A stretch of DNA of 13,285 bases from a virus. Lineage: Duplodnaviria > Heunggongvirae > Uroviricota > Caudoviricetes. The stretch lies in IMG/VR virus record IMGVR_UViG_2609459822_000007. One strand, 5' to 3'. Of the stretch, positions 6,001-9,000 are shown one piece after another. Each line of letters starts with the position of its first letter. Within the stretch, counting starts at the first letter, position 1. The position numbers were made by a program.

Positions 6001-9000
6001 GTATTGTCGCAAAGAGTTATAACATCAATACCGTGATTCAAAATCAATTTCAGACGTTCAATCGCTTCACCGACTTTTTCTCTTGAAAGTCTGTCCAGAC
6101 TTTCAACTAACAATGTAGTTCCTGGCAATATATAACCATGCTCTATAGCATCTAAAAATTCCGAAAAAGCTCCTGATTGTGCATGCTTTCCTTTGAATGC
6201 ACTTAATCCTAAATCTTCATATGTTATGGTATCAAGATAATAATCACTATTTACCTTTAACCATTCAGCAATAAGTCTTCTCTGTCGGTTTAATGAGTCA
6301 CCAGACATCTGACCTGGTGATGAAAATCGCATATATGCTATGGCTTTTTTCATGGTGACACCTGCTAACGTATGCTTTTATAAACCTTAGTGGTGGGATA
6401 TAATTTTTGTTTAATTTTTATTTAAAAAGACAATTAAGGTCACATTATCTTGAATATACAACAATAATCGTATTGCAATTTTCTTACGCCATAATCTTGA
6501 AAGCACAAAAGAATACATAAAAAATAAAGACATTAACAAAAAGCATAAAACGAGGCTCATATAAATATAAGAGCCTCCATATTTTAGTCGTTTAGAAACA
6601 AATTATTTTAATGTGGTGTGCTTCGTGACAATAAATTAATAACCAACACACCGGCACAAATCAACATCATGCCTATAATAGCTGGCAGGTCCAGCCGTTG
6701 GTCGAAAAGTCCCCATGACAGTAAGCTAATCAGGACAATACCGACTCCTGACCAGATAGCATAAGCAATCCCTGTAGGAATATAAGCCAGCGTCTGAGCT
6801 AATAACCAGAATGATGCACAATAACAAATAATTGTACCAACAGATGGCCATAACCGTGTAAAACCTTCTGAAAACTTCATTAAGGTTGTACCAATGACCT
6901 CTGCAAGTATTGCACCACCAAGATAAATATAAGGGTTCATAGCATATTCTTTCCTGTTCAAACTGGAGAGAATTGTACTACAGTTTGAACTCAACTCACC
7001 TGTTTCATCATTGTGTACCCATTGATGTTCTTTTATATACCCTCAATACCCGTTTCATCGCGGCACTCTGGCGACACTCCTTAAAAATCAGATTCGTGCT
7101 CACCTTTCCTTCCCGTTCTTCTCTGGTAGCGAACCGGTAATACACCGTTCGCCAGACCTTACCATCAACGACCAGGATTCCTGCCCGCGCCATTTTAGCC
7201 GCAGCCTGATTTATGCTGGTTACGGTTGCGCCTGTTACCGCGGCAACGTCCTGTGCACAGAAGCTCTTATGCGTCCCCAGGTAATGAATAATTGCCTCTT
7301 TGCCCGTCATACACTTGCTCCTTTCAGTCCGAACTTAGCTTTAATTTCTGCGATCTTCGCCAGAGCCTGTGCACGATTTAGAGGTCTACCGCCCATAACA
7401 GGAAGTTGTTTTACTGGTTCAGGTATCGTCTCACCACGGTTAATTCGCGCTGTCATACAGGTCAGTTCATCGGCAGCCTTGCGCCGTAATTCCGCGTCAG
7501 TCAGCGCATTGGCCCGCATGTTCTGGTACAAGTTGGTAACCAACCAGTAATGCGCGTTCGATTTCCACGGATAAGACTCTGCATCCGGATACAGGCCACG
7601 CTTCCGGCAATACTCGTAAACCATATCAACCAGCTCGCTGACGTTTGGCAGCCCGGCGTTAACAGATGCTTCTTCCCGGCACCAGGCGACAAACTGCCCG
7701 GGTGATGGCAGGAATGGTCGATTCTGCCGACGGGCTACGCGCATTCCAGCGTTAACCTGTTCCATTGTGGTGATCCCGTTTTCCCGGAAAGCCAGAACCC
7801 ACTGGCGGCGGATTTCGTTCAGTTCATTCTGGTCACGGTTAGCCAGGCTCGCCGGGAAAGTTGCCAGTAACTGGCTGAACACACCGTTGATGATCTGCGC
7901 TACCTGCTGTACCTGTGGCTTTTCGTCGTACTGTTCCGGCATGTTGTTGGCGATCCGGCGCATCTGCTCACAGTCAAAGTTAACCATCTGTGCGGCGATG
8001 TTTTTCATAGCTCCACCCCGTAAATCCAGTCAGTGTTCGTCAGGTCGAGTTTTGGTTTGCCGGCTGTCACGCCAGCCTGTTGCTTGTTTCGGTTGATTTC
8101 GAGCTGGGTCCACTTGTCGCGGAGTTTGGCCGGACTTAGCACGTTACCGGACCAGAAGTTGTCCTGGCATGCCCAGCGGAACAGCACGCACATGTCGCGG
8201 TGGTTACGTCCGTCACGTTCACGCATCAGGCGGATATCGTTAGCCCACCCTGCAAAATTCGGTTTTCTGGCTGATGGCGCGATGGTCTTCACCATGTCAA
8301 ACATCCACTCTGCGGCGGTCAGGTCTTCTGCTGTCCCCCACTTGCTGCCGCTCTGAATTGCAGCATCCGGTTTCACCACAGGAAGATCGTTTTCTGGTTG
8401 GTCAGAGGATTCGCCAGAATTCTCGGACGAAAAAGGTTTTATATTGTCTTTTGTTAGTTTGTCTTTTGTGTTTACCTGATTCGGGTAAACGCCTTTACCT
8501 GATTTGGGTAAACTTTTTTTACCTGATTCAGGTAAATTTACCTCTTTCAGGTAAACTTTATTTTTCTTACCTGATTCGGGTAATGTTGACCATTCACTGA
8601 CCACATTATTAATGCCGGTATTCCGCCCGCTCTGAATAAAAATCCCACGCTTTACCAGAACACTTTTTGCAGCAGAACACTTGTGCGGCAATATCCCGGT
8701 TAATTCGGAAAGTTGCTCGTTGCTAACCCAATCCAGTTTTTTATTAAAGCCATATGTTTTGCGCATGACAGCCAGAAAGACCAGAAGCTGGTGCTGTGTT
8801 AATCCGGCCAGCATCACAGCTTCCAGCAACTCATTTGCAATGCGCGTATAACCATCATCGAGATCTGCCACGCGCGGCTCCTTTTGTGCCGCATCCGGCA
8901 CTGGAAAATTGAATATCTCAGCAGTGTTTGCCATAATTCCTCCCGCAATGAGTGTGTTACGATTTGCACCTGAAAGTCGGTTCTGTTCCCGCAGACCGAC

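What the first reader, a model, noticed from the sequence alone, without database searches (positions are those of the whole stretch)
6956..6990. Perfect 10 bp inverted repeat at the ren-emrE boundary
GTTCAAACTG-N15-CAGTTTGAAC sits at the left edge of the cargo block, between the ren stop and the emrE ribosome-binding site. It has no T-run, so it is more likely an RNA stability or processing element, a regulator binding site, or a remnant of the insertion event than a terminator.
Basis: seen in the sequence. Interest (0 to 1): 0.35.

Follow-up and report, generated by a model that had tools for sequence, protein, structure and literature searches.

The report
Palindrome straddling the emrE promoter
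The perfect 10-bp inverted repeat is real, but it brackets the -10 box and start site of the emrE drug-efflux gene's own weak promoter, is not conserved as a palindrome in related bacteria, and so looks ordinary.

Summary
In detail: GTTCAAACTG-N15-CAGTTTGAAC is at 6956-6990, between the ren stop (7008) and the emrE Shine-Dalgarno sequence. All genes here are on the minus strand.

It is not at the cargo edge. The ren/cargo breakpoint is at about 7026-7034, inside the ren 3' end, 36-44 bp away. The cargo-free junction carries lambda tR2 there instead.

The repeat belongs to a roughly 95-nt upstream segment that travels with emrE into other genomic contexts. Its 15-nt spacer holds a -10 hexamer, TACAAT (6972-6977). 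Published Cappable-seq data for K-12 place a transcription start 24 nt before the ATG, which is window 6964, the second base of the emrE-proximal arm. emrE's own mRNA therefore lacks the other arm and cannot form the hairpin.

Across Escherichia, the -35-like to -10 block and the ribosome-binding site are conserved, but the emrE-proximal arm is not. Arm complementarity is 10/10 in DLP12-type prophages, 9/10 in the E. coli fliE-adjacent copy, 7/10 in three sister species and 5/10 in E. albertii. Arm variants within the prophage lineage are uncompensated.

There is no U-tract, no Rfam match and no second copy. The dyad symmetry is most likely incidental. An unknown repressor's operator, or a hairpin on read-through transcripts, remain minor possibilities. 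Interest is low.

The parts
6981..6990 (-). Promoter-distal (upstream) arm, GTTCAAACTG as read on the minus strand. It lies at -26 to -17 relative to the mapped start, in the spacer between the -35-like and -10 elements.
   Evidence: It is identical in E. coli (both contexts), E. whittamii, E. ruysiae and Escherichia sp. E1V33. GTTCAAAC is also present upstream of emrE in Citrobacter and Kluyvera.
6966..6980 (-). 15-nt spacer TAGTACAATTCTCTC, which contains the -10 hexamer.
   Evidence: TAGTA(C/G)AAT is invariant in all Escherichia copies and in Citrobacter murliniae. None of the 15 positions is polymorphic among 107 prophage contigs.
6972..6977 (-). -10 hexamer TACAAT, matching TATAAT at 5 of 6 positions.
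   Evidence: Read from the sequence. It lies 7 nt upstream of the Cappable-seq transcription start and is conserved as TA(C/G)AAT.
6994..6999 (-). -35-like hexamer GTGAGT, matching TTGACA at 3 of 6 positions, with a 16-nt spacer to the -10.
   Evidence: Read from the sequence; this assignment is an inference. GGTGAGTT is conserved in Escherichia. It is too weak to be flagged by the consensus scan.
6956..6965 (-). emrE-proximal (downstream) arm, CAGTTTGAAC on the minus strand. It covers -1 to +9 and so holds the transcription start and the first 9 nt of the 24-nt leader.
   Evidence: It is the least conserved segment: CAGTATGAAC in the fliE context, CGGTATTAAC in the sister species and CGGAATTATC in E. 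albertii.
6964..6964 (-). emrE transcription start (A), 24 nt upstream of the ATG.
   Evidence: Cappable-seq TSS at U00096.2 position 567514(+), score 12.9 (Ettwiller 2016, PMC4782308, supplementary file 1). emrE spans 567538-567870. K-12 is identical to the window over 6941-7016 (H32).
6970..6970 (-). Weak alternative 5' end, supported by 2 reads.
   Evidence: Kim 2012 (PMC3415461, supplementary file 2): TSS at 567508, 5' UTR of 30 nt, with the upstream sequence printed.
6949..6955 (-). Shine-Dalgarno region AGGAAAG, immediately after the proximal arm.
   Evidence: Read from the sequence. AGGAAAGAATATGCTATG is invariant among the Escherichia copies except for single SNPs.
6608..6940 (-). emrE coding sequence (110 aa).
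   Evidence: RefSeq annotation of the identical record.
7008..7310 (-). ren coding sequence (100 aa), with a chimeric C-terminus.
   Evidence: The C-terminus diverges from cargo-free ren after ...RVL(R/A)VY.
7026..7034 (.). Breakpoint between the phage backbone (ren) and the emrE module.
   Evidence: Homology to the cargo-free prophage starts at 7035. Homology to emrE modules in other contexts ends at 7017-7041.

Best explanation
The 35-bp segment is the core of emrE's own weak sigma-70 promoter plus the start of its leader. It is not a junction element.

Reading the minus strand, the parts are:
- a -35-like GTGAGT (6994-6999);
- a 16-nt spacer that contains the upstream arm;
- the -10 hexamer TACAAT (6972-6977), which sits in the 'loop';
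- transcription starting at the A at 6964, the second base of the downstream arm;
- a 24-nt leader running into the Shine-Dalgarno sequence.

This promoter travels with emrE as a self-contained, 'moron'-like module that was spliced into the 3' end of ren, replacing terminator tR2. In a lysogen emrE is transcribed from this promoter, and that mRNA carries only one arm, so no hairpin forms.

The perfect dyad symmetry is most probably incidental. It is complete only in the DLP12-type prophage allele. It arises from base differences in the poorly constrained initially transcribed region opposite a conserved promoter spacer.

Shown: the position, the breakpoint, the conservation pattern and the published transcription start. 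Inferred: the assignment of the -35, and the conclusion that the symmetry has no function of its own.
For: (1) The repeat is not at the junction. Cargo-free ren prophages are homologous only from 7035 onward, and they carry the lambda tR2 hairpin plus U-tract directly after ren. That terminator is absent from the window.

(2) emrE and its upstream segment move together. Window 6601-7017 recurs at about 92% identity next to fliE in roughly 2250 of 5426 E. coli genomes. It also recurs next to folD in E. whittamii and beside an integrase in E. albertii.

(3) A transcription start is mapped inside the repeat. Cappable-seq places it at U00096.2 567514, which is 24 nt upstream of the ATG, 7 nt after TACAAT, and corresponds to window 6964. 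A weaker 5' end maps at -30.

(4) The conservation pattern is that of a promoter. Between the window and the E. whittamii/E. ruysiae copies (L004, L006):
- GGTGAGTTnAGTTCAAACTGTAGTACAATTC differs at 1 position;
- the RBS-to-ATG block is identical;
- the downstream arm differs at 3 of 10 positions.

(5) Arm complementarity falls from 10/10 (DLP12) to 9/10 (fliE context), 7/10 (three sister species), 5/10 (E. albertii) and 2/10 (C. murliniae). The hairpin energy goes from -11.9 to -8.2 and then to between -2 and -5 kcal/mol.

(6) Among 107 DLP12-type prophage contigs, two arm positions are polymorphic. Both changes break a pair and neither is compensated. The density of polymorphic sites in the arms is the same as in the flanks.

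(7) No Rfam family matches, and there is no terminator signature.

(8) In a paraquat evolution experiment that selected for EmrE activity, a 9-bp IS1-type insertion was called 39 bp upstream of emrE. That position is beside the -10 box and fits a promoter location.
Against: - The -35 match is poor (3 of 6), so the consensus promoter scan does not flag the site.
- Genomic SELEX for constitutive RpoD promoters listed the emrE-ybcK and ybcK-ybcL spacers but not this site, and treated renD-emrE as one transcription unit.
- The transcription-start evidence is one Cappable-seq peak plus a 2-read peak 6 nt away. I could not retrieve any other data set.
- 'Incidental symmetry' is a negative conclusion. 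Sister species still show 7/10 complementarity and E. albertii 5/10, against about 2.5 expected by chance. E. albertii also has two double-sided changes that keep pairs 2 and 7. A degenerate ancestral dyad therefore cannot be excluded.
- The full conservation of the upstream arm, which lies in a promoter spacer that normally tolerates change, is not explained by basic promoter function alone.
Confidence: 0.65

Rival explanations
1. The repeat is the operator of an unidentified dimeric repressor. The dyad is centred on the -10 hexamer and spans -26 to +9, so a bound protein would block RNA polymerase and keep emrE silent until it is induced. Multidrug-efflux genes controlled by palindromic operators work in this way.
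For: - The 10/10 symmetry is centred on the -10 box and transcription start.
- The upstream arm is fully conserved even though it lies in a promoter spacer.
- Residual complementarity is 7/10 and 5/10 in other species.
- An adaptive insertion in the spacer arose under paraquat selection, and it would also split such an operator.
- No regulator of emrE turned up in the papers I found.
Against: - The downstream half-site is the least conserved part of the region, and its changes are not matched in the other arm.
- Arm variants inside the prophage lineage are as frequent as flank variants.
- No repressor gene travels with the module. YbcM is an AraC-type protein and is absent from the E. whittamii and E. 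ruysiae loci.
- No second copy of the half-site exists in the window at 0-1 mismatches near any promoter.
- The half-site centres are 25 bp apart, about 2.4 helical turns, which is out of phase for a simple dimer. This last point is an inference.
Confidence: 0.18
2. The repeat acts as an RNA hairpin, but only on read-through transcripts. These come from the phage pR-O-P-ren operon, or in K-12 from upstream DLP12 promoters. On such transcripts it would act as a processing site or a 3'-protective stem-loop. That would uncouple emrE translation or stability from the phage early transcript, in the position where tR2 normally sits.
For: - The isolated 35-mer folds at -11.9 kcal/mol.
- It lies 17 nt after the ren stop, in the slot that tR2 occupies in cargo-free phages.
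- The perfect form is confined to the phage-borne allele, where co-directional read-through exists.
- Several changes in other species are G-U compatible.
- An upstream Cappable-seq start (567166) exists in K-12.
- Shimada 2014 lists renD-emrE as a unit.
Against: - In the 81-nt context the hairpin has an ensemble frequency of 0.018, is absent from the centroid structure, and the region folds no better than shuffled sequences (z = 0.09).
- There is no U-tract and no Rfam match.
- Arm variants are uncompensated.
- No 3' end at these coordinates appears in the held text of the E. coli 3'-end mapping supplement (this is weak evidence, as the files may be incomplete).
- Only one base separates the perfect form from the fliE-context allele.
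Confidence: 0.12
3. The repeat is a scar or site of the DNA event that brought in the cargo. It could be an attachment or crossover site for the neighbouring serine recombinase YbcK, or the terminal repeats of a small mobile element.
For: It lies near the ren-cargo boundary, a recombinase gene (ybcK, 4827-6353) is in the block, and the sequence has dyad symmetry.
Against: - The breakpoint is 36-44 bp away.
- The repeat (9/10) is present in the ybcK-less fliE-context copy, and its upstream arm is present in ybcK-less species.
- ybcK-ylcJ is a separate indel at 4518-6600, on the other side of emrE.
- No related copy occurs at the other end of the cargo, and there are no flanking direct repeats.
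- The total length is odd (35 bp), so there is no central dinucleotide. This last point is an inference.
Confidence: 0.03

Closest known systems
Sigma-70 promoter of a phage 'moron' (an autonomously transcribed cargo gene in a lambdoid prophage; concept recalled from my own knowledge of lambdoid phage genomics)
   Same: emrE sits between ren and the nin genes. It has its own -10 box and a mapped transcription start, and the promoter moves with the gene between genomic contexts.
   Different: The promoter is weak (-35 matches at 3 of 6) and was not picked up as a constitutive RpoD promoter. The module also carries ybcL and ybcM and, in this window, an inserted recombinase gene. No dedicated terminator was identified directly after emrE.
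Lambda terminator tR2
   Same: It occupies the same slot, directly downstream of ren. In the cargo-free relative the tR2 hairpin AGGCCTGC-N8-GCAGGCCT plus TTTTTATTT is found there.
   Different: There is no sequence similarity. The stem here is AT-rich with a 15-nt loop and no U-tract, so it is not an intrinsic terminator. The cargo junction removed tR2 rather than modifying it.
Palindromic operators that overlap the -10 box or start site of multidrug-efflux genes, such as QacR at IR1 of qacA or AcrR at acrAB (recalled from my own knowledge, not tested here)
   Same: The repeat is a long dyad overlapping the -10 box and transcription start of an efflux-pump gene.
   Different: No cognate TetR-type repressor gene lies next to emrE. 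The downstream half-site is not conserved among orthologous promoters. No binding data exist.

Membership tests
Sigma-70 promoter | A -10 hexamer close to TATAAT, with A at position 2 and T at position 6 | tested here: met
   TACAAT at 6972-6977 (minus strand) matches at 5 of 6 positions. It is conserved as TA(C/G)AAT in all Escherichia copies and in C. murliniae.
Sigma-70 promoter | A -35 hexamer close to TTGACA, 16-18 nt upstream of the -10 | tested here: inconclusive
   GTGAGT with a 16-nt spacer matches at only 3 of 6 positions. The consensus scan did not flag the site.
Sigma-70 promoter | An experimentally mapped primary 5' end 5-9 nt downstream of the -10 | tested here: met
   The published Cappable-seq TSS at U00096.2 567514 corresponds to window 6964, 7 nt after TACAAT. 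A weaker TSS-seq peak lies at 567508. This was taken from the literature, not measured here.
Intrinsic (Rho-independent) terminator | A G+C-rich stem followed directly by a run of U | tested here: not met
   The stem has 4 G-C pairs out of 10. It is followed by AGGAAAGAAUAUG on the minus strand and by TCAACTCACC on the plus strand. The scan found no terminator in 6500-7400.
Conserved structured RNA element (leader, riboswitch or processing hairpin) | A match to a curated RNA family | tested here: not met
   An Rfam 15 E-value scan of 6400-7400 gave only chance-level hits, all far below their gathering scores.
Conserved structured RNA element (leader, riboswitch or processing hairpin) | Pairing kept across relatives through compensatory changes | tested here: not met
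   The arms match at 9/10, 7/10 and 5/10 in relatives, and the hairpin energy collapses. Arm variants in 13 prophage contigs are uncompensated. Only two double-sided changes were seen, both in E. albertii alongside three broken pairs.
Conserved structured RNA element (leader, riboswitch or processing hairpin) | Both arms present in the gene's own transcript | tested here: not met
   The mapped start lies in the downstream arm, so the emrE-promoter mRNA lacks the upstream arm. Folding the leader from +1 shows no exceptional structure.
Palindromic repressor operator | Dyad symmetry overlapping core promoter elements | tested here: met
   A 10/10 dyad spans -26 to +9 and is centred on the -10 box.
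Palindromic repressor operator | Both half-sites conserved in orthologous promoters | tested here: not met
   The upstream arm is conserved, but the downstream arm differs at 1, 3 and 5 of 10 positions in the fliE-context, sister-species and E. albertii copies.
Palindromic repressor operator | An identified cognate DNA-binding protein | not testable with these tools
   No repressor gene co-travels with the module. The literature searches found no reported regulator or binding site.
Recombination site or insertion scar (att site, terminal inverted repeats) | Coincides with the breakpoint between backbone and insert | tested here: not met
   The breakpoint is at about 7026-7034, and the repeat begins 36 bp inside the module.
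Recombination site or insertion scar (att site, terminal inverted repeats) | A related copy at the other end of the insert, or flanking target duplication | tested here: not met
   No other copy of the arm with 1 mismatch or fewer occurs, except an unrelated site at 11042. No flanking direct repeats are visible in the sequence.

The most novel reading that the evidence does not exclude
The dyad is a genuine regulatory operator or RNA element that was perfected only in the phage-borne emrE allele. Two versions are possible. In one, it binds an unknown repressor that keeps emrE silent, which would be the first regulator known for this model efflux pump. In the other, it forms a hairpin that insulates emrE from pR read-through after the cargo displaced tR2.
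Probability: 0.2. Interest if true: 0.4.

Novelty: already known. Interest (0 to 1): 0.12.

Why it matters
It matters little as a discovery. The value lies in correcting the picture.
- The emrE 'cargo' in DLP12-type prophages brings its own promoter.
- The true splice point is inside the end of ren.
- The splice removed the tR2 terminator.

This shows how a drug-efflux gene can be expressed from a repressed prophage, and that the same promoter-gene unit has moved between at least four genomic contexts in Escherichia. If the minority reading were right and the dyad is an operator, it would point to a so-far unknown regulator of EmrE, a heavily studied model transporter whose regulation is poorly described.

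Tried and rejected
- **Terminator:** rejected. There is no U-tract and the scan was negative.
- **Known RNA family:** rejected (Rfam).
- **Insertion scar or YbcK site:** rejected on position, on the repeat's presence in ybcK-less copies, and on the lack of a partner copy.
- **Known transcription-factor boxes:** I compared the sequence by eye, from memory, with the LexA box (CTG-N10-CAG; here the gap is N15), CRP, FNR and the marbox. None fits. These were not formal scans.
- **Further transcription-start or 3'-end data:**
  - Thomason 2015 is not held.
  - The Mendoza-Vargas 2009 supplement has no emrE entry.
  - The SMRT-Cappable-seq supplement has nothing as held.
  - The Adams 2021 3'-end supplement has no entry at these coordinates as held.
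- **Literature on an emrE promoter or regulator:** searches found nothing specific, apart from the gSELEX table and the paraquat evolution study.
- **Covariation test:** the raw numbers look favourable (83% of cells paired; 0 of 500 shuffles reach this). However, the structure was derived from one of the sequences and seven of the nine rows are close relatives, so I do not count this as support.
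Full report
**1. Observation**

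The window is a DLP12-type lambdoid prophage of E. coli, 100% identical to NZ_CP026723. Its early-right genes are all on the minus strand:
- O (8005-9024);
- P (7307-8008);
- ren (7008-7310);
- emrE (6608-6940);
- ylcJ;
- ybcK (4827-6353);
- ybcL (3811-4362);
- ybcM (3004-3801), followed by the nin-type genes.

The repeat GTTCAAACTG-N15-CAGTTTGAAC is exactly at 6956-6990. It begins 17 nt after the ren stop and ends directly before the Shine-Dalgarno AGGAAAG (6949-6955). No T-run follows it on either strand, and no terminator is called.

Statistically, one perfect inverted repeat of at least 10 bp with a loop of 20 nt or less is expected 0.21 times per shuffled window. At least one occurs in 19% of shuffles. 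The real window has four. The repeat is real, but on its own it is not remarkable.

**2. The repeat is not at the cargo boundary**

A search of 5426 complete E. coli genomes with 6560-7360 separates three classes:
- the intact ren-emrE junction, in 1393 genomes;
- emrE plus its upstream region only (window 6602-7017, about 92% identity), in a different locus;
- ren without emrE, where homology starts only at 7035.

In the cargo-free prophage L002 the ren C-terminus differs...RVLAVYGVKR* against ...RVLRVYKRTSMGTQ* in the window. There, ren is followed at once by AGGCCTGCTGGTAATCGCAGGCCT-TTTTATTT. From memory I recognise this as lambda tR2. That terminator is absent from the window.

Alignments place the breakpoint at about 7026-7034. 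This is 36-44 bp from the repeat and inside the ren reading frame.

**3. The repeat belongs to a mobile emrE module**

The same upstream segment accompanies emrE in several contexts:
- next to fliE, with ybcL-ybcM but without ybcK (L001; about 2250 genomes at 90-95% identity);
- next to folD/ybcJ in E. whittamii (L004), where homology to the window covers only 6525-7032, i.e. emrE with its upstream and a little downstream sequence;
- in E. ruysiae (L006) and Escherichia sp. E1V33 (L005), whose neighbouring genes I did not identify, though none of ren, P, ybcK, ybcL, ybcM, fliE or fliF lies within 3 kb;
- beside a P4-type integrase in E. albertii (L007), where about 30 nt of the ren 3' end is still attached.

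Cultured lambdoid phages carry the identical ren-emrE junction.

**4. What the 35 bp contain**

On the minus strand the sequence reads GGTGAGTTGA-GTTCAAACTG-TAG-TACAAT-TCTCTC-CAGTTTGAAC-AGGAAAGAATATGCT-ATG.

The spacer holds TACAAT, a 5-of-6 match to the -10 consensus. Published Cappable-seq data for K-12 list a transcription start at U00096.2 position 567514(+) with score 12.9 (Ettwiller 2016, supplementary file 1). K-12 is identical to the window over 6941-7016. With emrE at 567538-567870 (Kim 2012 table), that start is 24 nt upstream of the ATG. This corresponds to window 6964, the A of the proximal arm, 7 nt after TACAAT.

Kim 2012 also reports a 2-read start at 567508 (window 6970).

The upstream arm therefore lies at -26 to -17, within a 16-nt spacer that follows a -35-like GTGAGT. 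The downstream arm lies at -1 to +9. emrE's own mRNA begins inside the repeat and cannot form the hairpin. Its 24-nt leader shows no special structure.

**5. Conservation**

| Copy | Repeat segment (minus strand) |
|---|---|
| Window (DLP12 type) | GTTCAAACTG TAGTACAATTCTCTC CAGTTTGAAC |
| E. coli fliE context | ...CAGTATGAAC |
| E. whittamii / E. ruysiae / E1V33 | ...C(G)GTAT(T)AAC, i.e. CGGTATTAAC |
| E. albertii | GACCAATTTG TAGTAGAATACGCTT CGGAATTATC |
| Citrobacter murliniae | keeps only TAGTAGAAT |

Watson-Crick complementarity of the arms is 10, 9, 7, 7, 7, 5 and 2 out of 10 (the three 7s are the sister species). Hairpin energies are -11.9, -8.2, -2.3 to -4.9, -2.1 and -4.2 kcal/mol.

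Between the window and the E. whittamii/E. ruysiae copies (L004, L006):
- the block from GGTGAGTT through TACAATTC differs at one position;
- the RBS-to-ATG block does not differ at all;
- the downstream arm differs at three of ten positions;
- the sequence further upstream is much more diverged.

This is the profile of a promoter followed by an unconstrained initially transcribed region and then a ribosome-binding site. It is not the profile of a two-armed element.

Among 107 DLP12-type prophage contigs the two polymorphic arm positions (G to T in 10 contigs, A to T in 2) both break pairs and are not compensated. The density of polymorphic sites in the arms equals that in the flanks.

A formal pair count looks favourable. 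It is confounded, however, because the structure was derived from one row and most of the other rows are close relatives. The only independent signal is two double-sided changes in E. albertii, set against three broken pairs.

**6. Other tests**

- No Rfam family matches.
- Folded within 81 nt of read-through context, the hairpin has an ensemble frequency of 0.018 and is absent from the centroid. The region folds no better than shuffled sequences.
- No other copy of the arm occurs in the window.
- ybcK-ylcJ (4518-6600) is a separate clean indel on the far side of emrE, so the recombinase is not linked to the repeat.

**7. Literature**

I found no description of an emrE regulator or of this repeat.
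- Shimada 2014 lists constitutive RpoD promoters in the emrE-ybcK and ybcK-ybcL spacers, notes H-NS there, and treats renD-emrE as one unit. This fits a weak emrE promoter, and it means read-through transcripts exist in K-12.
- A paraquat evolution study found emrE amplification and, in one lineage, a 9-bp IS1-type insertion 39 bp upstream of emrE. If that distance is counted from the ATG, the insertion lies in the repeat's spacer, two bases before TACAAT. This is what one would expect for a promoter-up event, but it would also split an operator or a hairpin.

**8. Verdict**

The most likely reading (about 0.65) is that the repeat is the emrE core promoter and the start of its leader, and that its dyad symmetry is incidental and lineage-specific.

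The minority readings are:
- an operator for an unknown repressor (about 0.18);
- a hairpin that acts only on read-through transcripts, in the slot vacated by tR2 (about 0.12);
- an insertion scar or recombination site (about 0.03), which is effectively refuted.

The feature is ordinary, and the underlying promoter start site is already in public data sets.

Noticed in passing
window 4518-6600: ybcK (a 508-aa serine recombinase) and ylcJ form one clean 2.08-kb indel relative to the fliE-context E. coli copy and the E. albertii copy of the emrE-ybcL-ybcM module. The indel starts 7 nt after the emrE stop. Short AATAAT-like sequences sit at both ends.
   Followed up: partly
L001 4479-6415; L007 2899-5064; L004 2909-3418: emrE and its promoter occur in at least four contexts: after ren in prophages; next to fliE with ybcLM in about 2250 of 5426 E. 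coli genomes; beside a P4-type integrase near sapC in E. albertii, still carrying about 30 nt of ren; and alone next to folD in E. whittamii.
   Followed up: partly
L002 3937-3960 (minus strand); absent from the window: The cargo-free relative has a lambda tR2-type intrinsic terminator immediately after ren. The cargo junction in the window removed it, together with the last codons of ren, so pR transcription can run from ren into emrE without meeting that terminator.
   Followed up: partly
window 4579-4591 / 4616-4628: A perfect 13-bp inverted repeat, AAAATACGTGACA-N24-TGTCACGTATTTT, lies between ybcK and ybcL. It is just upstream of GTGGCA-17-TACAAT (4457-4485), which matches the ybcL promoter listed by Shimada 2014. 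It is stronger than the repeat under study.
   Followed up: no
L010-L017, about 80 nt upstream of emrE (alignment A4): The emrE upstream regions of Citrobacter, Kluyvera, Erwinia and Pantoea share GTTCAAAC(T) with E. coli. They have 13 extra nt before a TGn-extended -10, giving TTCAAA-19 nt-TACGAT/TATAAT, with a TCAC-N10-GTGA dyad inside the 19-nt spacer. This layout is reminiscent of MerR-type promoters.
   Followed up: no
window 6937-6945 (minus strand): A two-codon mini-ORF, ATG-CTA-TGA, has better spacing from the Shine-Dalgarno sequence than the emrE ATG. Its stop codon overlaps the emrE start (ATGA), which suggests possible termination-reinitiation. The mini-ORF's ATG is lost in alleles with ATATTCT (L084-L086) and in L005.
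   Followed up: no
window about 6979 (K-12 equivalent): A published paraquat evolution study of K-12 reports a 9-bp IS1-type insertion 39 bp upstream of emrE. That position is inside the repeat's spacer, next to the -10 box. Other lineages in that study amplified the emrE region about 42-fold.
   Followed up: partly
window 8471-8583: A cluster of 19-bp palindromic repeats (TTTACCTGATTCGGGTAAA and variants) lies inside the O gene. These are typical lambdoid origin iterons.
   Followed up: no
window 2911-2939: A perfect 10-bp inverted repeat, GTCACCGGAG-N9-CTCCGGTGAC, lies 65 nt downstream of the ybcM stop, close to the right end of the homology shared with the fliE-context and E. albertii modules (2787 and 2899).
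   Followed up: no
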